Assembly: GCA_018221105.1 (NCBI GenBank)
Contig: JAAOYA010000008.1
Span: 192,648 to 256,647, forward strand
Length of the DNA stretch: 64,000 nucleotides
Direction of reading: 5' to 3'
Source of the DNA: Candidatus Woesearchaeota archaeon
GTDB lineage: Archaea > Nanobdellota > Nanobdellia > Woesearchaeales > JAAOYA01
Part shown: in pieces, positions 14,791 through 23,529 of the stretch
How positions within the stretch are numbered: the first letter of the stretch is position 1
Layout of the letters: each line of letters begins with the position of its first letter
The notes under the pieces: model-generated
Databases searched by the model: none
What the model was told of the DNA's origin: nothing
What the model saw: the letters and a program-made list of their open reading frames with translations, nothing else
Made by a program: the position numbers and the translations under genes

Positions 14791-15237
14791 ATGAAATACA
14801 AACTAATTTTTTTAACGTTGGTTCTGTTTTGCCTTATTTTATCAGGATGCGTTAGTGGAGATAATTATTATCAAAGAAAAGCTGAACAAAAATTGGCTGA
14901 TACATTAGAAGAATATAATGCCCATATCAATATAGTTAAAGAATATGACGCAGATTGTCTCAAAAATTGGTGTATCAATACATGTATGACTGAAAAAAGT
15001 GATATATCTGATGCTCAAGCAAAATCAGTTAAGTGTAATATGGAATGTAATAAAGTCGAAATGATTGAAATAAACGCGGCAGAATATCCTCAATGCAAGA
15101 AAGACTCTACAACAGTTAATACTCAAGATGAAGATTGCCCAATAGTATATAAATGCAAAAACCCGATAAGAGAAGACAATATTGAAAAGTGTCCAGAATC
15201 AGAATTACAAGAATATAGGGAAAGGTGTATGAGCTAG
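14791..15237 (+). CDS. cysteine-rich putative lipoprotein
   Basis: Signal peptide ending in lipobox-like LSGC. 14 Cys in the 148-aa product. Flanked by long AT-rich intergenic regions. Confidence 0.4.
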   Translation: MKYKLIFLTLVLFCLILSGCVSGDNYYQRKAEQKLADTLEEYNAHINIVKEYDADCLKNWCINTCMTEKSDISDAQAKSVKCNMECNKVEMIEINAAEYPQCKKDSTTVNTQDEDCPIVYKCKNPIREDNIEKCPESELQEYRERCMS

Positions 15238-15411: not shown

Positions 15412-16359
15412 TCAGGCTTTTTCTGCACTGCCAAACAATTCTATTTTTTCTTTGACTTTTTCTTTGACAGCATCGCATGCTACTGACAAGTATTTTCTTG
15501 GATCAAAAGTTTTCTTGTCCATTTTATTTAGCGGGTGTTCTTTAAAGTATTGTTTTTCTGCCAGTGTTGCAGCTAGTTGTAGTTCTGTATCAATATTGAT
15601 TTTTGTAATGCCTAACTTTACTGCTTTTTTAATATCATTTGCAGGTATCCCGCTAGCACCATGCAACACAAGTGGCACGTTAATGGTTTGTTGTAGTTCT
15701 TTTAATATTTGAAAATTCAATTTTGGTCTGCCTTTGTAAAACCCGTGAGCATTGCCAATGGCTGGTGCTAAAGTGTCAATGTTTGTTAGTTTTACAAATT
15801 CTTTGGCTTGTGATGGGTCTGTAAAAAAGTGTTTTTCTGATTTTATATTTTCGTCTTCAACTCCTGCAAGAATTCCTAGTTCTCCCTCGCACGAAGCATT
15901 ATTTTTGTGCGCTAATTGTGCTGCTTTTTTTGTAAGCATCACATTTTTTTTAAAAGAGTATTTGCTACCATCCAGCATTATACTGCTATAACCTGCTTTT
16001 AGAACTTTTGATACATTACGATTAGTTTTACCATGGTCTAAGTGCAAACTTATTGGCTGTTTATGCTCTTTGATTGCAACTTGCACTAGAGCAACTATAT
16101 TTTTTAGTCCGGCGTAGGTAATTGCTGACTCTGAAGTTTGCACAATTACTGGAGCGTTAAGCTCTTTTGCACCATTAAGTATCGCTTGTAATGTTTCCAA
16201 GTTTGCAAAATTAAAAGCTCCTACTGAATAACCTTTTTTTTGCGCTTTAGATTGCAATTCAATATTAGTGTAAAGCTTCATAAAAAAATAGTTAGTTTGA
16301 AGGTTTTTAAAGGTTTGCTCAAAAGACAAAACAAAGAATAATTTATAAATATAAAACAA
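15412..16359 (-). CDS. fba: class II fructose-/tagatose-bisphosphate aldolase
   Basis: TIM-barrel class II aldolase hallmarks: N-terminal GYSVGAFN, HLDHG metal-binding motif, LVLHGASGIP. 315 aa. Confidence 0.8.
   Translation of the reverse strand: MFYIYKLFFVLSFEQTFKNLQTNYFFMKLYTNIELQSKAQKKGYSVGAFNFANLETLQAILNGAKELNAPVIVQTSESAITYAGLKNIVALVQVAIKEHKQPISLHLDHGKTNRNVSKVLKAGYSSIMLDGSKYSFKKNVMLTKKAAQLAHKNNASCEGELGILAGVEDENIKSEKHFFTDPSQAKEFVKLTNIDTLAPAIGNAHGFYKGRPKLNFQILKELQQTINVPLVLHGASGIPANDIKKAVKLGITKINIDTELQLAATLAEKQYFKEHPLNKMDKKTFDPRKYLSVACDAVKEKVKEKIELFGSAEKA
16343..16353 (+). promoter_or_regulatory. candidate TATA box for the RM-nuclease operon
   Basis: tttataaatat about 35-45 nt upstream of ATG 16386, with a purine-rich acaggaaa Shine-Dalgarno-like element at 16378-16385. 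Confidence 0.25.
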
Positions 16360-16385: not shown

Positions 16386-19280
16386 ATGTTTGATGAAGAA
16401 AAAGTAAAGCAAGAAATCAAAATTCTTGTTGATAAATATAATAGACTTTCAGATACAGGTAAAATTAAAAACTATAATGAAGAAAGAACTAAAGCCGAAT
16501 TCATAGAACCTTTATTTGAAACTCTTGGCTGGGATGTCAGAAATAAACATAGTGATGATGAAGTTACAAGAGAAGAAAAAGTTTCAAAAGGTAGAGTAGA
16601 TTATGCATTTAGAATTGATGGAATCCCTAAATTTTTTCTTGAAGCCAAAAAACCAAAAGAAGATTTAGACAATCAAAAACATGTAAAACAAGCAATAGAC
16701 TACGCATGGCACAAAGGTTGCACATGGGCTATTCTAACAAACTTTGAAAGCATAAAAATATTTAATGCAGAAGTCAAAAACATCAATCCATTACAATCAC
16801 AATTTGGACAAACATTTTTCTTTTATGATTTTCTTAACAACTTCGACCAAATATGGCTTTTGTTATCAAGAGAAAGTTTCAAAGAAGGATTAATAGATAA
16901 AGAAGCAGAAAAATGGGGCAAAAAAGCAAAAAAAGTACCTGTTGACAAACAGCTTTTAAACGACCTCACAAATTTTAGGGAATTGCTCTCTAAAAACATC
17001 TTAAAAAATAACTCAGCAAAAAACCTCAGCGGCGATGATTTAGATGAAACTGTCCAAAGAATTTTGGACAGACTAATTTTTATTAGAACACTTGAAGATA
17101 AACAATTAGAAGCACCTATTCTTCAAGCACTTATTAGAGAAGACCAACACAAAAGAGTGTATGCTAAATTAAATTCTTTTTTTAGAAGAATTGATGAAGA
17201 ATACAATAGTAAAATATTCGCGCCCCATTTATGTGAAGAAGTAGTAATTGACAATGAAATTTTAGAGAAAATAATTAGAGGTTTATTTAAAACATCCGAC
17301 AACACTGTTCATTATAATTTTGGAGCTATTGATGCCGATGTTCTTGGAAATATGTATGAACAATACTTAGGACATATATTAAAGAAAACTGATAAAAGAG
17401 CAAAACTAACTGAAGGCAAAGCTCACAGAAAAGAACAAGGAATTTATTACACGCCAACATACATTGTTGATTACATTGTAAAAAACACAATCGGCGAGTT
17501 AGCAAAAAATAAGAAATTTGATTTAAGCAAAATCAAAGTTTTAGACCCTGCTTGCGGGTCAGGATCATTTTTAATAAAAACAGTTGATTATTTAATAGCA
17601 CTAGAAAAAAATCGAAACGGTAATGTTGACCAAACAAAGCTTGACTTAACAGGTGCTTCTGCAACTTATGGCAAAAAAATTGAAATATTAAAAAACAATA
17701 TTTTTGGCGTTGACCTAGACCCCAAAGCTGTTGAGATAGCACAATTAAATCTTCTTCTCAAAGCAGCTGAGAAAAAACACAGATTACCAACTTTGCAAGA
17801 AAACATTAAAATCGGTAATAGTTTAATTGATGACGAAGAAATCGTAGGAAACAAAGCTTTCAAATGGGAAGAACAATTCAAAGAAATAATAGAAGAGGGA
17901 GGCTTTGATGTAGTAATAGGAAATCCCCCATACATAAGAATACAAACATTGGACAAAAATCAAGTAGAATATTTTAACAGAAAATATGAATCACCCACAA
18001 AAAATTATGATATATACCTTCTTTTTATTGAGAAAGGATTCAAACTCTTAAAAGAAAACGGGATCTTAGGATTGATTCTGCCTCATAAGTTCTTTCAAGG
18101 CGAGAGTGGTGAAAAGATAAGGAAGTTTATTTCCGAAAGAAAAGCACTTCATCGAATTGTTGATTTTGGTACAAATCAAATTTTTGAGGATGCTGCTACA
18201 TACACATGTCTTTTATTCTTACAAAAAAAGAATAATCGAGAGTTTTATTACAAAGGTTTTAAATTAGGTGATAACTTCAAAAATTTGATAAAAGCAAAAT
18301 ATGAAAAGAAGAGTATCAATATTCTGAAAGATGAAAAGTGGAATTTTAGCAGTCAGAATATCCAAAAAATTCTGAAAAAAATAAAATCATATGAACAAAA
18401 CTTTAGAGACATTACAAAGAAAATTTTTAAGGGATCATCCACAGGTAATGATGATATATTTCTTCTTGATTTAATTAAAAAAAGTAACAATAAATCACTT
18501 GTTTTCTCTAATGCTCTCAATAAAGAAATAGAACTAGAAAATGATGTTCTCCATCCATTTGTCTACGGAAAAGATATACGAAGATATGGTTTAATTAAAA
18601 ACAATAAATTATTATTGTTTCCTTATCTTCAAAATAAAGACAAAACTGAACTAATTCCTCTCTTAGAACTACAAAAATATTATCCTAAAACATTCATGTA
18701 TCTAAACTCATTAAAGGATGAACTACTTAAAAGAAAACTTGAGATAGATAATAAAAATTTTTATAAATATTCTGCTGCAAGAAGTTTATCTGAATACAAT
18801 CAGCCAAAAATAATGATACCTGATATGTTAGTTAGCAATAGGATAAGCATCGATGAGAAAGGAATATTCTACCATGGACCAGCAATCCACAGTATAGTAT
18901 TTAACGATAAAGTTAAGAATCATAGCCAGCATTTCTATTTAGGAATATTAAATTCTTCGCTTTTCTGGTTCTTCATTTCAAATACTAGCACAGCACTAAG
19001 AGGCGATACGTATAGACTTACTCCTGAATTTTTGTCACCATTTTGTTTTCCTAAAATAGATAAAAAAAATGAGGGAATTTATTATAACATTAGCGATTTC
19101 GTTAAACAAATGTTGAAATTTACAAATAACTTATCAGAAATAGATAATAAACAAACGGATGAAAAAGCTCGTCTGGAAAAACAAATCCAAAAAATTGATG
19201 ATGATATTGACCAATCGGTTTACAAGCTTTATGGTATAACAAAAGAAGAACAAGAGATTATTGAAGAGAGTCTAAAATGA
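16386..19280 (+). CDS. type IIG (MmeI/Eco57I-like) restriction-modification enzyme: N-terminal PD-(D/E)xK nuclease + gamma-class N6-adenine MTase + TRD
   Basis: N-terminal HsdR_N-like nuclease motifs (ERTKAEFIEPLFETLGW, GRVDYAF, FFLEAKKP giving D...ExK). MTase motifs YYTPTYIVDYIV, VLDPACGSGSFL (motif I), GNPPYI (motif IV). C-terminal LYGITKEEQEIIEESLK helix typical of TaqI/Eco57I-type C-terminal domains. 964 aa in a single polypeptide. Confidence 0.7.
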   Translation: MFDEEKVKQEIKILVDKYNRLSDTGKIKNYNEERTKAEFIEPLFETLGWDVRNKHSDDEVTREEKVSKGRVDYAFRIDGIPKFFLEAKKPKEDLDNQKHVKQAIDYAWHKGCTWAILTNFESIKIFNAEVKNINPLQSQFGQTFFFYDFLNNFDQIWLLLSRESFKEGLIDKEAEKWGKKAKKVPVDKQLLNDLTNFRELLSKNILKNNSAKNLSGDDLDETVQRILDRLIFIRTLEDKQLEAPILQALIREDQHKRVYAKLNSFFRRIDEEYNSKIFAPHLCEEVVIDNEILEKIIRGLFKTSDNTVHYNFGAIDADVLGNMYEQYLGHILKKTDKRAKLTEGKAHRKEQGIYYTPTYIVDYIVKNTIGELAKNKKFDLSKIKVLDPACGSGSFLIKTVDYLIALEKNRNGNVDQTKLDLTGASATYGKKIEILKNNIFGVDLDPKAVEIAQLNLLLKAAEKKHRLPTLQENIKIGNSLIDDEEIVGNKAFKWEEQFKEIIEEGGFDVVIGNPPYIRIQTLDKNQVEYFNRKYESPTKNYDIYLLFIEKGFKLLKENGILGLILPHKFFQGESGEKIRKFISERKALHRIVDFGTNQIFEDAATYTCLLFLQKKNNREFYYKGFKLGDNFKNLIKAKYEKKSINILKDEKWNFSSQNIQKILKKIKSYEQNFRDITKKIFKGSSTGNDDIFLLDLIKKSNNKSLVFSNALNKEIELENDVLHPFVYGKDIRRYGLIKNNKLLLFPYLQNKDKTELIPLLELQKYYPKTFMYLNSLKDELLKRKLEIDNKNFYKYSAARSLSEYNQPKIMIPDMLVSNRISIDEKGIFYHGPAIHSIVFNDKVKNHSQHFYLGILNSSLFWFFISNTSTALRGDTYRLTPEFLSPFCFPKIDKKNEGIYYNISDFVKQMLKFTNNLSEIDNKQTDEKARLEKQIQKIDDDIDQSVYKLYGITKEEQEIIEESLK

Positions 19281-20662
19281 CGAATACTATAACTGCTTCT
19301 CATTTTTATGATTATGTTCAATGTCCTTACAGAGTTTACCTGGATATTTTCGCAGACGAAAAAGAAAAGGTTGAGATTTCTGAGTTCATGCTCAAAAAAA
19401 TGGAAGATGGCGTATTTCACGAAAAAGATGTTATTAAAGATGAAGACTTCTTAGAAATAGAAGCATTAACTCTTGAGGAAGGCTTTAAAGAAACAGTTAA
19501 AGCTATGAAGAATGGTGACGAGCTTATTTATCAGGGTGTTTTATTGAATGATGACTTTATTGGAAAACCTGACTTACTAATAAAAAAAGAAGGAAAATCA
19601 AAATTTGGAAACTATTTTTATGTACCTGCTGATATTAAATCAGGAAAGAGACTTAAGGATGAGTATATCATGCAAGTAATGTTTTATTGCGAGTTATTAA
19701 ATTTTATACAAGATAACTTTCCAAAAAAAGGAATTGTAATTAACATTGAAAAAGAAGAACTTGAGTTTAACACAGTTGAATATAAAGAACAGTATGAGCA
19801 GATGTTAACCGCTATTAAACAAATAGTTAATGGAAAAAAAGAAGAGCCAGTTTATTGTTCAGATTGTAATGAGTGTGTCTGGCAAGAACTTTGTTTTAAA
19901 GAACTAGAACAAAAACAAGATGTTTCATTATTGTATAGGCTTGGACGTTCTGTTAAAAATAAACTCATTCCTTTAGGCATTAATAATCTAACAGATTTAA
20001 GAAAATCTGATACTGCTAAATTATTAGAAGTTAAAGGAATAGGCGAGAAATCAGTTAAGAAATGGAAATTAATGGCTGAAGCAATACAAGAAAAGAAAAT
20101 GTTTGTTATCGAAAAACCATCTCTTCAAAATAAAAAAGTTGAAATATTTTTTGACATAGAAGGTGAGCCTGAATTAGATATTGATTATTTGTATGGTTGT
20201 TTGATTAGAATTGATGGTAAAGAAGAATTCAAATATTTCTGGGCTGAAAAACCCTCTGATGAGGGTAAAATGTGGAAGTTGTTCTGTGAATTCATTGATT
20301 CTTGTAATGATGATCTTGCTATTTATCATTATGCTTCGTATGAAAAAACCGCATTAAAAAAGATGAAAGAACGATACGGATGCACAGAAAAAACATTCGA
20401 CAAAATAATCAATAACCTGGTAGATTTATTTCCAGTGGTAACCAATTCTGTCGTCTTACCCGTATATTCTTATTCGTTAAAACCCATTGCTAAATGGTTA
20501 GACTTTAAGTGGAAAGATTCAAAAGCAGGAGGCGCGCAATCTATGTTCTGGTACTCTCGCTATTTAGACGGCGAAACTGATTTTAAACAAACAATAATCG
20601 ATTACAATAAAGACGATGTTATTGCCACAAGAATCCTAAAAGATTGGTTAATAAATTTATAA
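19277..20662 (+). CDS. TM0106-family RecB-like nuclease (Cas4-like Fe-S nuclease domain + C-terminal RNase-H-like domain)
   Basis: N-terminal Cys (YDYVQCPYRVYL), PD-(D/E)xK-like GKPDLLI...YVPADIKSGK, C-terminal Cys triad CSDCNECVWQELC (Cas4/DUF83 cysteine arrangement). Then IFFDIEGEP...YHYASYEK...DDVIAT as in RNase_H_2 (DnaQ-like fold) domains of the TM0106 family. ATGA overlap with the RM gene. Confidence 0.6.
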   Translation: MTNTITASHFYDYVQCPYRVYLDIFADEKEKVEISEFMLKKMEDGVFHEKDVIKDEDFLEIEALTLEEGFKETVKAMKNGDELIYQGVLLNDDFIGKPDLLIKKEGKSKFGNYFYVPADIKSGKRLKDEYIMQVMFYCELLNFIQDNFPKKGIVINIEKEELEFNTVEYKEQYEQMLTAIKQIVNGKKEEPVYCSDCNECVWQELCFKELEQKQDVSLLYRLGRSVKNKLIPLGINNLTDLRKSDTAKLLEVKGIGEKSVKKWKLMAEAIQEKKMFVIEKPSLQNKKVEIFFDIEGEPELDIDYLYGCLIRIDGKEEFKYFWAEKPSDEGKMWKLFCEFIDSCNDDLAIYHYASYEKTALKKMKERYGCTEKTFDKIINNLVDLFPVVTNSVVLPVYSYSLKPIAKWLDFKWKDSKAGGAQSMFWYSRYLDGETDFKQTIIDYNKDDVIATRILKDWLINL

Positions 20663-20697
20663 TTTCTCACTGGTCACTGGACATTCACGACTAAAGT

Positions 20698-20707
20698 TTA
20701 TATATCA
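20698..20707 (+). promoter_or_regulatory. candidate TATA box for a leaderless PRTase/DprA-like transcript
   Basis: tttatatatc centred about 25 nt upstream of ATG 20727. Spacing fits an archaeal leaderless mRNA. Confidence 0.3.
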
Positions 20708-20726
20708 ATAATGCTTTATAAGTCCG

Positions 20727-21401
20727 ATGTCAGAGTATATAGTTCGTTATGCTGCTTCAAAAAAATTGTATCCTAAAGAGATATTGATATTTGCTTTAGA
20801 CTATTACAAATCATTAGAGTCAGGAGAAGATGATTTTTCAAGGAAGCTAATATATTTTTATAAGTATGGTAATAATCTTGATTATTTCTTAGAGAATCTT
20901 CTTCAATTATTTACGCTAAGATTCAAAGACGACGCAATTAAATTTGATTTAGTAACAATATATCCCACTCATAAAAAAGATTCATTAAACCTTAATATGA
21001 TTTCATTGATAGAATCATTTAGCAAAAACTCAGGTTTACAATACAATCAAATTATTAGAAGAATAAAAACAATAAAATCAAACCATGAATGTAAGTCATT
21101 TGAGGAAAGAAAAGAGAATGTTAAAGACTCTATCGAAATAACTGGAGATGTCAAAGGGAAAAATATTATTCTAGTCGATAATACTTCCACCACAGGAATA
21201 TCTTTAATTGATGCCACAAATCTATTATATGAAAAAGGAGTAAATATGGTTGTTTGTGTCTGTCTTGGCTTAAGTGAAAAAGAAAAGGAAAAAGATTGGA
21301 AAGATATTAACAAAACTTTAAAATACTCAAAAATCCTAACATTTTGTAAAAGCCCGTTTATTTCGGAAGAAGAGCGTAAAAAATGGAAGATGAAAAAATA
21401 A
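20727..21401 (+). CDS. phosphoribosyltransferase-domain protein (ShosT-like / ComFC-like)
   Basis: C-terminal type I PRTase PRPP-binding motif NIILVDNTSTTGISLIDATNLL. 224 aa. Overlaps the downstream DprA-like gene by 19 nt. Confidence 0.5.
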   Translation: MSEYIVRYAASKKLYPKEILIFALDYYKSLESGEDDFSRKLIYFYKYGNNLDYFLENLLQLFTLRFKDDAIKFDLVTIYPTHKKDSLNLNMISLIESFSKNSGLQYNQIIRRIKTIKSNHECKSFEERKENVKDSIEITGDVKGKNIILVDNTSTTGISLIDATNLLYEKGVNMVVCVCLGLSEKEKEKDWKDINKTLKYSKILTFCKSPFISEEERKKWKMKK

Positions 21402-22258
21402 TAAAACTAATCTCGCTAAAGGAAGTTAAAGGGTATGGTAATAAAAAAGTTCTTGAAATAGTTTCAAACTATAAAAATTTGGATACTGTATTTCTTTCTC
21501 TTTTAAACAAGGGCGTTATTAGAAAAGAACATGTAGAAAAAGCCAAAGAAATTATGAAGCAGTGTAAAAATTCAGAAATAGAGATAATAACTTATTTTGA
21601 TAAAAAATATCCTCAAAAACTAAAACAAATGAATATTCCTCCAATATTATTGTTTGCTAAAGGAGATACAAGTTTATTAAACAAAATTTCAATTTCGATT
21701 GTTGGTACAAGAAAGTCATCTCAAAAAAGCATTGAGTGGGCATATAATATGTCCAAAAAATTATCAGAGGAAGGATATATTGTTGTTAGTGGTGGAGCTA
21801 TAGGAATAGACATCTCAGCGCATAAGGGTATACTTAATTCAAAAGGAAAAACGATTTGTGTTTTAGGCTCTGGAATAAATAATATTTATCCAAAAGAAAA
21901 TGAAAAAACAATTAATATAATAATGAAAGAAGGTCTTGTTATTTCTGAGTGCCCGCCTAAAAATAATCCTAATGAGTTCTCTCTTCTTGAAAGAAATAGG
22001 ATTACATCAGGTCTTGGAGATAATATTATAATAGTTTCTATGGACACTAAAGGAGGAACTATTTCCCAATACAAAACCGCGAGAATTCAAAAAAAGAAGA
22101 TATTTTGTCCGCATCCTTCTCTTAACTTAGAGCCAAATGAAGGCATAAAAAAAATACTAGCAACGGATAATAATATAAAACTAATTAAAGACATTCACGA
22201 AATAAAAAATTATTTATTATCTAGAAATAATCAGAAGATTCTTGAAAATTTTGTATGA
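21383..22258 (+). CDS. DprA/Smf-like (SLOG Rossmann) protein (ShosA-like)
   Basis: ISIVGTRKSSQKSIEWAYNMSKKLSEEGYIVVSGGAIGIDISAHKG matches the DprA Rossmann core (GsR...G...vSGgA.GiD..ah). 291 aa. Confidence 0.65.
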   Translation: MEDEKIIKLISLKEVKGYGNKKVLEIVSNYKNLDTVFLSLLNKGVIRKEHVEKAKEIMKQCKNSEIEIITYFDKKYPQKLKQMNIPPILLFAKGDTSLLNKISISIVGTRKSSQKSIEWAYNMSKKLSEEGYIVVSGGAIGIDISAHKGILNSKGKTICVLGSGINNIYPKENEKTINIIMKEGLVISECPPKNNPNEFSLLERNRITSGLGDNIIIVSMDTKGGTISQYKTARIQKKKIFCPHPSLNLEPNEGIKKILATDNNIKLIKDIHEIKNYLLSRNNQKILENFV

Positions 22259-22542: not shown

Positions 22543-23529
22543 TTATACTTTTTGTTTTGTTATGCGAACGCCTTTTTTCATAGCAGTACTAATATTTTTT
22601 GTTGTTAACAGTCCGTTTTTTGCTCCTTTTTGTGTTATTGCAGCTTCAGCATTTGACAGTCCTTTATTTAGTGCTATTGACAAATCGCCGGTTTTAATCA
22701 ATCCTGATAAAAATCCTGCTCCAAAAGCATCTCCTGCACCTGTAGTCTCAACTATTTTTAAGTGTTGGCGAGGCCAAATAGTGTGAATTGATCTGCCATT
22801 AAATGCGTAAGCTGGTTTTGCAGCGTCAGTTATTACTACTATGTCAGCTCCAAGACCATGCAATACTATTAATTGTTCTTTTACATTATTTTTTTTGCTT
22901 ATAAGATGTGCTTCTTGTCTATTAAGGACTAAAAGATTAGTGCGTGAAAGTATTGGTTTTAAGTATGCTTTGCCTTTTGCCGCTAAATAGTTTGAAGGAT
23001 TGAAAGCAATGTTGATACCATTATTTTCTGCGTGTTTTGCTAGTTGACAAATTGTTTTATAGGTTTGTCCAATACTACTAGTAAAATAATACCAGTAAGC
23101 GTCAAGGTTTTTAATGTTAAGTTCTGTTAGTTTCAATTCTTTTGATGCCCCTTTGTAAAGTAATATTGTTCTATCGCGCATAATACTATCAAGAACTACT
23201 GCATAATCTGTCGCTGTTTTGCCTTGAGTGCCTAAAAACTTTATTTTTTCAGTTTTTAACTCGTACAATATTTTTTGTGCTTTCAAATCATTGCCAAGTT
23301 TTCCAGCGTATCCGACCTTGTGGCCAAGTCTTGAAAGTGCTACTGCAATATTGTTTGCGCTACCACCAGTATGTTCTGCTTGCTGTTCAATTAAAATTTT
23401 TGCTCCAAGAGGATAATGTAAGTAACATTTGCCATTGTGAGAATGATCTTTTTGACAAAAATTTTTTTGGTTTTCAGTGCTAATAAAAGTATCAACTGTC
23501 GCGCTGCCAAAAGTAATAATTTCAAACAT
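22543..23529 (-). CDS. PfkB-family carbohydrate/nucleoside kinase
   Basis: PfkB signature 2 VETTGAGDAFGAGFL near the C-terminus. N-terminal GG-type motif (FGSATVDTFI). 328 aa. Confidence 0.75.
   Translation of the reverse strand: MFEIITFGSATVDTFISTENQKNFCQKDHSHNGKCYLHYPLGAKILIEQQAEHTGGSANNIAVALSRLGHKVGYAGKLGNDLKAQKILYELKTEKIKFLGTQGKTATDYAVVLDSIMRDRTILLYKGASKELKLTELNIKNLDAYWYYFTSSIGQTYKTICQLAKHAENNGINIAFNPSNYLAAKGKAYLKPILSRTNLLVLNRQEAHLISKKNNVKEQLIVLHGLGADIVVITDAAKPAYAFNGRSIHTIWPRQHLKIVETTGAGDAFGAGFLSGLIKTGDLSIALNKGLSNAEAAITQKGAKNGLLTTKNISTAMKKGVRITKQKV

What the first reader, a model, noticed from the sequence alone, without database searches (positions are those of the whole stretch)
16386..20662. 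Type IIG RM enzyme translationally coupled to a TM0106-family Cas4-like/RNase-H-like nuclease: candidate two-gene defence module
A single-polypeptide MmeI/Eco57I-like enzyme (PD-ExK nuclease + NPPY gamma-MTase + TRD) would normally be a self-contained RM system. Here its stop overlaps (ATGA at 19277-19280) the start of a 461-aa TM0106-family protein. That protein carries a Cas4-like four-cysteine PD-(D/E)xK nuclease domain plus a DnaQ/RNase-H-like C-terminal domain. Such tight coupling implies co-expression and probably a functional partnership (for example an accessory exonuclease that processes restriction products, or a second effector). I am not aware of a described defence system with this exact composition.
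Basis: partly seen in the sequence, partly recalled or inferred. Interest (0 to 1): 0.8.

Follow-up and report, generated by a model that had tools for sequence, protein, structure and literature searches.

The report
Restriction enzyme overlapping an unrelated nuclease
A self-contained restriction-modification gene in a tiny (DPANN) archaeon overlaps by four bases a DNA-end nuclease gene, but the two are found together nowhere else, so this is a one-off neighbourhood in a small defence island and not a new two-gene immune system; this restriction-gene family does, however, often carry a different tightly coupled gene at exactly that spot.

Summary
A 964-aa type IIG restriction-modification enzyme (16386-19280) overlaps by ATGA a 461-aa TM0106/COG2251 nuclease (19277-20662). 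That nuclease has a Cas4-like 4-Cys PD-(D/E)xK domain, an HhH segment and a DEDDy exonuclease domain, and all catalytic motifs in both proteins are intact.

The proposed two-gene module fails its own refutation test. None of 80 TM0106 loci has a IIG gene alongside. None of 60 IIG loci has a TM0106 gene downstream, including the five closest IIG relatives (60-77% identity). TM0106 homologues mostly sit in housekeeping neighbourhoods, often with their own promoter, and show no defence enrichment. ATGA overlaps are common in this genome (7 of 43 same-strand pairs).

The locus is therefore a small defence island between FBA and PfkB.

One unexpected result: in this IIG family the stop codon overlaps a variable downstream gene by exactly 4 nt in 41% of homologues, against 11% for other gene pairs in the same loci (p≈1e-5). 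A conserved SD-like GAGGAG lies upstream, and the partners are enriched for nucleases (Shedu, YhcG, HNH). A looser idea, "IIG plus an interchangeable coupled effector", stays open.

The parts
15412..16281 (-). Class II fructose-bisphosphate aldolase; left boundary of the block, divergent from the IIG gene
   Evidence: Pfam F_bP_aldolase E=4e-96. The 289-aa form with ATG at 16281 equals NCBI protein P0241. GC is 0.338, against 0.27-0.31 in the block.
16342..16356 (+). TATA-like element (TTTATAAATATAAAA) in the 104-nt divergent intergenic region; putative IIG promoter
   Evidence: Read directly from the sequence, ~40 nt upstream of ATG 16386. Inferred, not tested.
16386..19280 (+). Type IIG restriction-modification enzyme (N-terminal PD-ExK nuclease, gamma-class N6-adenine methyltransferase, TaqI_C-type target-recognition domain)
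   Evidence: PADLOC PDLC03604 E=1.6e-188, full length. Pfam domains. Motifs D72/E86/K88, DPACGSGSF, NPPY513. 100% identical to NCBI Woesearchaeota protein P0121.
19263..19280 (+). Coupling junction: weak SD-like GAAGAGAG followed by ATGA (IIG stop / TM0106 start), within the family-conserved C-terminal coding sequence IIEESLK*
   Evidence: Sequence. Family comparison of 3' ends.
19277..20662 (+). TM0106 / COG2251-family nuclease: Cas4-like 4-Cys PD-(D/E)xK domain (~1-210), HhH (~215-270), DEDDy 3'-5' exonuclease domain of the PF13482 type (~290-458)
   Evidence: TIGR03491 E=1.2e-113. Pfam. Invariant residues. AF2 model pLDDT 95.4 and Foldseek hits to Cas4 8d3l and Dna2 5eaw. HhH-level PDB hits.
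20693..20704 (+). Canonical archaeal BRE/TATA (AAAG-TTTATATA) centred ~26 nt before the ShosT ATG; implies a separate, leaderless ShosTA transcription unit
   Evidence: Sequence. Inferred from the established archaeal promoter consensus.
20727..21401 (+). ShosT-like phosphoribosyltransferase (toxin of a Shosta-type system)
   Evidence: PADLOC ShosT E=4e-13. Pfam Pribosyltran 29.2 bits against a cutoff of 26.3.
21383..22258 (+). ShosA-like DprA-family protein (antitoxin); overlaps ShosT by 19 nt
   Evidence: PADLOC ShosA E=8e-65, near full length. Pfam DNA_processg_A E=9e-60.
22543..23529 (-). PfkB-family sugar kinase; right boundary of the block, convergent
   Evidence: Pfam PfkB E=4e-38. GC 0.341.

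Best explanation
The locus is a small defence island in a Woesearchaeota (DPANN) chromosome. It holds three independent functional units.

(1) A self-sufficient single-polypeptide type IIG restriction-modification enzyme. Its TRD reads an asymmetric site, the NPPY methyltransferase marks host DNA, and the N-terminal PD-ExK domain cuts unmodified DNA at a distance.

(2) A stand-alone TM0106/COG2251 DNA-end nuclease. It combines an Fe-S Cas4/RecB-type nuclease with a DEDDy 3'-5' exonuclease. In other genomes it is an autonomous gene that looks housekeeping and is probably involved in repair or recombination.

(3) A ShosTA-type toxin-antitoxin abortive-infection pair with its own promoter.

TM0106 is probably co-transcribed with the IIG gene and translated from the ATGA overlap. 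That junction is a general property of this IIG gene family and of compact DPANN genomes. It is not the signature of a dedicated IIG-TM0106 system.

Shown: gene identities, intact motifs, lack of co-occurrence, and the junction statistics. Inferred: co-transcription, the enzymatic activities, and the housekeeping role of TM0106.
For: Gene identities and motifs.

No co-occurrence from the TM0106 side: 80 species-level loci contain no IIG, ShosT or ShosA.

No co-occurrence from the IIG side: 0 of 60 loci, and the five closest IIG relatives have other downstream genes.

TM0106 neighbours are mixed and mostly housekeeping, including MacB/FtsX, SecDF, diphthamide synthase, ribosomal protein L31e and Ile-tRNA synthetase. 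26 of 71 have a divergent upstream gene, and -4 coupling to the upstream gene is at background, 4 of 45.

PADLOC hits are no more frequent at positions +/-1 than at +/-5 or 6. The family was not found in 2.9 M viral contigs.

The family is large (447 clusters at 50% identity with E<=1e-30), and its architecture was already catalogued as COG2251/F.13 (PMC3985635).

ATGA overlaps are common in the window, 7 of 43. ShosT has its own BRE/TATA.

Type IIG enzymes work as single genes against phage (PMC12259885).
Against: The closest TM0106 homologue (L002, 71% identity) also lies at the 3' end of a tightly packed RM operon (NgoPII REase, C5 MTase, Vsr, a 172-aa protein, then TM0106), next to an OLD-family nuclease. 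So 2 of 2 members of this subclade sit in RM contexts.

All four genes of the block, TM0106 included, have lower GC than the flanking genes. TM0106 may therefore have arrived with the island and not be a resident housekeeping gene.

The IIG family shows significantly elevated exact coupling to its downstream gene, and those partners are enriched for nucleases. This fits a functional role for the second cistron.

No experimental data exist for any TM0106-family member.
Confidence: 0.62

Rival explanations
1. Modular two-tier system. In this DPANN IIG family the restriction enzyme is a conserved 'head' gene. Its 3' end (SD-like GAGGAG plus ATGA) drives translation of an interchangeable second effector, and TM0106 is one such cargo alongside Shedu-type, YhcG/DUF1016 and HNH nucleases. 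The second protein would either finish off restricted DNA or act as a back-up when the RM enzyme is inhibited, by analogy with EcoprrI-PrrC.
For: IIG-to-downstream exact -4 overlap occurs in 17 of 41 pairs, against 26 of 233 other same-strand pairs in the same loci (OR 5.6, p=1.1e-5). Upstream-to-IIG overlap occurs in 1 of 31.

The starts are real: most have no alternative start codons, and Pfam domains begin at residues 5-18.

GAG makes up 77% of Glu codons in the last 7 codons of coupled genes, against 29% in the gene bodies. An SD-like motif is present in 12 of 17 coupled and 14 of 41 uncoupled genes (p=0.02).

Partners differ even between IIG genes 74-79% identical. Nuclease-type partners number 5 of 17 coupled and 1 of 35 uncoupled (p=0.011).
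Against: Most coupled partners have no recognisable domain, and several are small membrane proteins. Upstream neighbours of IIG genes are also rich in defence and mobile genes, so this may be a general island effect.

The statistics rest on crude ORF calls, a post-hoc nuclease category, and sequences that are not phylogenetically independent. The C-terminal EE motif is conserved at protein level anyway.

The window's own junction has only a weak SD (GAAGAGAG). TM0106 is otherwise not defence-associated.
Confidence: 0.25
2. Dedicated IIG-TM0106 two-gene defence system: the nuclease is an obligate accessory of this restriction enzyme.
For: ATGA overlap and probable co-transcription. Both proteins are intact nucleases.
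Against: No co-occurrence in 80 TM0106 loci or 60 IIG loci. The closest IIG relatives carry other partners. Close TM0106 relatives stand alone. The only other place the pair was seen is a Logan contig with identical proteins (L001), so it is not an independent case.
Confidence: 0.04
3. TM0106 belongs functionally with the downstream ShosTA pair. It would generate the ssDNA ends on which the DprA-like ShosA and the recombinase act.
For: ShosA binds ssDNA and RecA and promotes recombination to counter ShosT (PMC11961720, PMC12961424). TM0106 lies 64 nt upstream of ShosT. SLOG-superfamily (LOG-like) genes follow TM0106 homologues in 5 of 73 loci.
Against: No ShosT or ShosA homologue occurs in any of 80 TM0106 loci. 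ShosT has its own canonical promoter. ShosTA is described as a complete two-gene system.
Confidence: 0.03

Closest known systems
Type IIG/IIL single-polypeptide RM enzymes (MmeI / Eco57I / BpuSI type; PADLOC REase_MTase_IIG PDLC03604)
   Same: Same domain order: N-terminal PD-ExK nuclease, gamma-class NPPY methyltransferase, then a TaqI_C-type TRD. Full-length profile match. TRD-region divergence among homologues is typical of the class. Single-gene systems of this class are shown to restrict phage (PMC12259885).
   Different: No solved close relative: the best PDB sequence hits are methyltransferase-only enzymes at E~1e-23. Recognition site and cleavage offset are unknown. This DPANN subfamily is unusually often 4-nt-coupled to a variable downstream gene, which I did not find described in the papers searched.
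TM0106 family RecB-like putative nuclease (TIGR03491; COG2251; family F.13 of Majorek et al. 2014, PMC3985635)
   Same: Full-length member with all conserved residues. Same Cas4-like (DUF83) plus PF13482 exonuclease architecture.
   Different: None structurally. Its position as the distal cistron of an RM operon is atypical for the family. The family has no experimentally determined function.
Cas4 (CRISPR adaptation nuclease) and the Dna2 / AddB nuclease domains
   Same: Four-cysteine Fe-S PD-(D/E)xK fold. Foldseek hits to Cas4 8d3l (E=1e-5, TM 0.66 on target) and Dna2 5eaw. Cys pattern C...C-x2-C-x5-C.
   Different: No cas1, cas2 or CRISPR array in the window. Carries an extra HhH and a DEDDy exonuclease domain. 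PADLOC Cas4 scores are only modest.
ShosTA (Shosta) toxin-antitoxin abortive-infection system
   Same: PRTase toxin gene followed by an overlapping DprA-like antitoxin gene. ShosA profile E=8e-65.
   Different: Archaeal (DPANN) host. The ShosT match is partial (E=4e-13), and the DprA/ComF competence families also score. Activity is untested.
EcoprrI-PrrC: a type I RM locus with an embedded latent anticodon nuclease (recalled from my own knowledge, not tested here)
   Same: Concept only: an RM enzyme genetically linked to a second nuclease that acts as a back-up.
   Different: Different enzyme classes. No evidence here of physical association or of activation by anti-restriction.

Membership tests
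Type IIG RM enzyme | Nuclease, methyltransferase and specificity domains in one polypeptide, with a full-length match to a curated IIG profile | tested here: met
   PDLC03604 E=1.6e-188, residues 7-958 of 964. Pfam HSDR_N/MmeI_N, N6_Mtase/Eco57I/MmeI_Mtase and TaqI_C in that order.
Type IIG RM enzyme | Intact catalytic motifs (PD-(D/E)xK; SAM motif I; NPPY motif IV) | tested here: met
   D72...E86-A-K88; D387-PACGSGSF; NPPY 513-516.
Type IIG RM enzyme | SAM-dependent cleavage at a fixed distance from an asymmetric site, with self-protection by its own methylation | not testable with these tools
   Needs biochemistry or methylome data.
TM0106 / TIGR03491 / COG2251 | Full-length match above the NCBIfam cutoff | tested here: met
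   380.5 bits against a cutoff of 97.45; residues 5-458 matched to profile positions 1-462.
TM0106 / TIGR03491 / COG2251 | Cas4-like PD-(D/E)xK domain with a 4-Cys cluster plus a C-terminal PF13482 DEDD exonuclease domain | tested here: met
   Architecture as described in PMC3985635.
Cas4 (CRISPR-associated) | Genomic association with cas1/cas2 and a CRISPR array | tested here: not met
   No Cas families among the neighbours. No CRISPR-like repeat array in 64 kb.
Proposed IIG-TM0106 two-gene defence system | Recurrent co-occurrence of the two gene families in independent genomes | tested here: not met
   0 of 80 TM0106 loci. 0 of 60 IIG loci. Closest relatives on both sides are unpaired.
Proposed IIG-TM0106 two-gene defence system | Defence-island enrichment of the accessory gene family | tested here: not met
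   PADLOC hits at positions +/-1 are comparable with those at +/-5 or 6. RM genes lie within 10 kb in about 7 of 80 loci.
ShosTA (Shosta) | PRTase-domain ShosT gene immediately followed by a DprA-like ShosA gene | tested here: met
   ShosT E=4e-13 and ShosA E=8e-65. 19-nt overlap.
ShosTA (Shosta) | ShosT toxicity neutralised by ShosA; anti-phage activity | not testable with these tools
   Known for E. coli systems (PMC11961720, PMC12961424). Untested for this archaeal pair.
RM-linked back-up nuclease (EcoprrI-PrrC type) | Physical masking of the nuclease by the RM enzyme and its release by anti-restriction factors | not tested
   Analogy only.

The most novel reading that the evidence does not exclude
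This DPANN-wide type IIG family may be a modular two-gene platform. The conserved 3' end of the restriction gene (...GAGGAGAGTTTGAAATGA) would supply a ribosome-binding site and start codon for an interchangeable, translationally coupled second effector. Effectors seen so far are Shedu-type, YhcG/DUF1016, HNH and, here, the TM0106 Cas4-DEDDy nuclease. The uncharacterised TM0106 family would then be recruited in this lineage as an RM-linked degradative or back-up nuclease.
Probability: 0.2. Interest if true: 0.65.

Novelty: new member of a known kind. Interest (0 to 1): 0.3.

Why it matters
As submitted, the finding does not reveal a new defence system. It is a solitary type IIG enzyme, an uncharacterised but already catalogued nuclease family, and a ShosTA pair, placed side by side. 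Showing this prevents a false 'new system' call.

Two things are still of some value. First, the TM0106/COG2251 family is large, conserved across DPANN, CPR and other small-genome lineages, has no known function, and folds confidently. It is a reasonable candidate for the DNA-end resection enzyme of organisms that lack RecBCD/AddAB.

Second, the excess of exact 4-nt coupling at the 3' end of this IIG family, with fast-changing and nuclease-enriched partners, is a testable lead. If it holds up under proper gene calling, it would describe a compact way for streamlined genomes to build layered immunity.

Tried and rejected
- the 40-sequence alignment was too diverse for pattern-based locus retrieval. 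I repeated it with 12 closer sequences.
- literature searches for TM0106, TIGR03491 and COG2251 returned only catalogue-level mentions and no functional work.
- a PDB sequence search with the TM0106 profile gave only HhH-level hits. The fold search was needed to place the nuclease domains.
- I looked for an 'empty site' to show that the four-gene block split a PfkB-to-FBA operon. The closest FBA relatives are only ~53% identical. FBA is next to various sugar kinases (ROK, PFK), but no informative empty site exists, so the idea stays only suggestive (L063).
- I first counted L088 as a second RM-linked case. It is the same locus as L002, with 100% identical neighbours, so I rejected it as independent evidence.
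- TM0106-ShosTA partnership: rejected, since ShosT and ShosA are absent from 80 loci.
- A hidden TM0106-like partner among IIG-downstream genes: the TM0106 profile HMM found none, even at E<=10.
- Viral origin of TM0106: no relatives in the viral contig collection.
- I suspected the -4 excess at IIG 3' ends was an ORF-extension artefact caused by the conserved Lys-TGA end. I rejected that for most cases because no alternative start codons exist in the first 10-40 codons and the domains start near the N-terminus.

Full report
**Observation**

The window carries ORFs at 16386..19280 (+, 964 aa) and 19277..20662 (+, 461 aa). The tetranucleotide ATGA at 19277-19280 is the stop of the first and the start of the second.

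The first protein matches the PADLOC type IIG profile PDLC03604 over its full length (E=1.6e-188). Pfam finds HSDR_N/MmeI_N, then N6_Mtase/Eco57I/MmeI_Mtase, then TaqI_C, in that order. It has D72...E86-A-K88, a DPACGSGSF motif I and NPPY at 513.

The second protein is a full-length TIGR03491 'TM0106 family RecB-like putative nuclease' (380 bits against a cutoff of 97). It has a Cas4-type cysteine pattern (C16, C197-x2-C200-x5-C206), D99, D119-x-K121 and Q133...Y137. It also has a PF13482 domain with DEDDy residues D293, E295, D383, Y443 and D447.

An AlphaFold2 model built on 40 homologues is confident (pLDDT 95.4). Foldseek matches the N-terminal half to Cas4 (8d3l) and the Dna2 nuclease, and the C-terminal half more weakly to RNase-H-like, DnaQ and PolB-exonuclease folds. 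PDB sequence profiles recognise an HhH module between the two domains.

**Source organism**

The IIG protein is 100% identical to an NCBI protein of a Candidatus Woesearchaeota archaeon on a 327-kb contig. The closest TM0106 homologues are also from Woesearchaeota. Other genes in the window, such as topoisomerase III and an STT3/AglB-like oligosaccharyltransferase, fit an archaeal chromosome.

The genome is compact. Of 43 same-strand neighbour pairs in the window, 7 overlap by exactly 4 nt and 18 overlap in some way. The ATGA junction alone is therefore not special.

**Is the pair a conserved module?**

From the TM0106 side, I retrieved 80 loci from species-representative genomes with up to 10 kb of flank. 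None has a type IIG gene next to the TM0106 homologue. Only distant N6-methyltransferase hits occur within 10 kb, in four loci. ShosT, ShosA and the flanking genes are not syntenic either.

The immediate neighbours are mixed and mostly housekeeping. They include MacB/FtsX, SecDF, a diphthamide/asparagine synthase fusion, PGI and sigma factors. Exact -4 overlaps join TM0106 homologues to diphthamide synthase (L003) and to MacB/FtsX (L024). Overall, -4 coupling to the upstream gene is at background (4 of 45), and 26 of 71 homologues have a divergent upstream gene, which implies their own promoter.

PADLOC hits are no more frequent among genes at positions +/-1 than among genes at positions +/-5 or 6 in the same loci. 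The next-closest relatives of the window protein (54% and 53% identity) are stand-alone genes beside ribosomal protein L31e, Ile-tRNA synthetase or a DNA glycosylase. No relative was found in the viral contig collection.

From the IIG side, the five closest homologues with context (77, 74, 67, 62 and 60% identity) have other downstream genes. A tblastn search with TM0106 found nothing in 60 further IIG loci that have at least 500 nt downstream.

**What is actually there**

The two genes after TM0106 (20727-21401 and 21383-22258) match ShosT (E=4e-13) and ShosA (E=8e-65). This is a Shosta-type toxin-antitoxin defence pair, whose mechanism has recently been described: a PRTase toxin, and a DprA-like antitoxin that binds ssDNA and RecA (PMC11961720, PMC12961424).

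A canonical archaeal BRE/TATA (AAAG-TTTATATA, 20693-20704) is centred ~26 nt before the ShosT ATG. A TATA-like element lies ~40 nt before the IIG ATG, in the 104-nt divergent spacer. Nothing comparable precedes the TM0106 start. I therefore infer two units: an IIG-TM0106 bicistron and a separate ShosTA unit.

All four genes have lower GC (0.27-0.31) than the flanking FBA and PfkB genes (0.34). PfkB and FBA form an overlapping operon in one CPR locus (L063). This suggests the 6-kb block was inserted between them, but no empty site could be found to prove it.

**The TM0106 family**

The family is large: 447 clusters at 50% identity with E<=1e-30, and 2,565 with E<=1e-10. It is concentrated in DPANN, CPR, Legionellales-like, Chlamydiia and similar small-genome lineages. 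It corresponds to COG2251, family F.13 of Majorek et al. 2014, where the DUF83 plus PF13482 architecture and a predicted 3'-5' exonuclease activity are already recorded (PMC3985635). I found no functional study.

The most likely function, by inference from the domains and the genomic contexts, is two-polarity processing of DNA ends in repair or recombination.

**Evidence pointing the other way**

The closest TM0106 homologue (L002, 71% identity) also lies at the end of a tightly packed RM operon: NgoPII REase, C5 MTase, Vsr, a 172-aa protein, then TM0106. An OLD-family nuclease sits on the other side. L088 looked like a second instance, but it is the same locus. Across the 80 loci, RM genes are directly adjacent in L041 and L060, two genes upstream in L002, and within 10 kb in about seven. 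That is no more than expected for these genomes.

**An unexpected family-level signal**

Among IIG homologues, the downstream same-strand gene starts exactly at an ATGA overlapping the IIG stop in 17 of 41 cases. The rate is 26 of 233 for all other same-strand pairs in the same loci (odds ratio 5.6, p=1.1e-5) and 1 of 31 for the upstream-to-IIG junction.

The family's C-terminus is conserved (...IIEESLK*). Its coding sequence...ATT GAG GAG AGT TTG AAA TGA, places an SD-like GAGGAG ~8 nt before the ATG.

The coupled starts are genuine. Most have no alternative start codon in the first 10-40 codons, and the domains begin near residue 5-18.

GAG makes up 29% of Glu codons in the IIG bodies, 77% in the last seven codons of coupled genes and 55% in uncoupled ones. 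An SD-like motif is present in 12 of 17 coupled and 14 of 41 uncoupled genes (p=0.02).

The partners are unrelated to one another and differ even between IIG genes that are 74-79% identical. Those with recognisable domains are mostly nucleases: Shedu SduA_C twice, YhcG/DUF1016, HNH, and TM0106 in the window. The count is 5 of 17 coupled against 1 of 35 uncoupled (p=0.011).

Several caveats apply. The ORF calls are crude, the nuclease category was chosen post hoc, and the sequences are related to each other. Upstream neighbours of IIG genes are also rich in defence and mobile genes. The window's own SD is weak (GAAGAGAG).

**Verdict**

The IIG-TM0106 pair is a one-off juxtaposition, probably co-transcribed, inside a small defence island that also holds a ShosTA system. 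It is not a conserved two-gene defence system.

The IIG enzyme and the ShosTA pair are new members of known kinds. TM0106 is a member of a catalogued but uncharacterised family.

A looser reading is not excluded: this IIG family may serve as a platform for interchangeable, translationally coupled second effectors. I put that at about 0.2-0.25. It is the only part of this locus that merits follow-up.

Noticed in passing
window 20693-22258: A ShosTA (Shosta)-like toxin-antitoxin defence pair sits directly downstream of TM0106 in a DPANN archaeon: ShosT-like PRTase 20727-21401 and ShosA-like DprA 21383-22258. A textbook archaeal BRE/TATA (AAAG-TTTATATA) lies ~26 nt before the ShosT ATG.
   Followed up: partly
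L082-L168 (IIG homologue loci); window 19263-19280: The 3' end of this IIG gene family (…GAGGAGAGTTTGAAATGA = IIEESLK*) overlaps a variable downstream gene by exactly 4 nt in 41% of cases, against 11% background in the same loci (p~1e-5). Partners differ between close IIG relatives and are enriched for nucleases (Shedu SduA_C, YhcG/DUF1016, HNH).
   Followed up: yes
L002 1780-9127 (Woesearchaeota Yap2000.bin4.8); L088 is the same locus: The closest TM0106 homologue (71% identity) ends a packed operon: HNH protein, NgoPII REase, C5 MTase, Vsr, a 172-aa unknown, then TM0106. An OLD-family AAA_15+TOPRIM nuclease is convergent downstream. This is a different defence island around the same nuclease.
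   Followed up: partly
L019, L021, L025, L026, L033, L048, L051, L061, L072 and similar CPR loci, immediately upstream of the TM0106 homologue: A small (~240 aa) PDDEXK_1 protein is the most recurrent upstream neighbour of TM0106 homologues (9 of 71), usually within 0-14 nt or overlapping. It may be a genuine partner in CPR bacteria. The locus list was inferred from ORF sizes (230-285 aa, same strand), because the census reports counts only.
   Followed up: no
CPR loci such as L013, L014, L030, L032, L040, immediately downstream of the TM0106 homologue: LOG/SLOG-family (Lysine_decarbox + LDcluster4) genes follow TM0106 homologues in 5 of 73 loci. The window's ShosA is also of the SLOG superfamily. 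The locus list was inferred from ORF sizes. This may be coincidence.
   Followed up: no
window 15412-16281 and 22543-23529; L063 11698-13598: PfkB and FBA flank the four-gene block in the window. In the CPR locus L063, PfkB and FBA are an overlapping pair directly downstream of a TM0106 homologue. All four block genes have GC 0.27-0.31 against 0.34 for the flanks. This suggests an insertion into a PfkB-FBA unit, but no empty site was found.
   Followed up: partly
window 20667-20680: Tandem heptamer TCACTGG TCACTGG in the 64-nt spacer between the TM0106 stop and the ShosT promoter. Function unknown; it could be an operator for the ShosTA unit.
   Followed up: no
window 14791-15237: A 148-aa ORF between PCMT and FBA has no hit in Pfam, NCBIfam or PADLOC.
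   Followed up: no
window 1-64000: No tRNA gene, no Rfam family at gathering score and no CRISPR-like array anywhere in the 64 kb.
   Followed up: partly
L002-L081 (record titles): The TM0106 family is concentrated in small-genome, host-dependent lineages: DPANN, CPR/Patescibacteria, Legionellales-like MAGs, Chlamydiia and Eisenbacteria. It was not found in the viral contig collection. This fits a core repair role where RecBCD/AddAB may be missing, which I did not test.
   Followed up: partly
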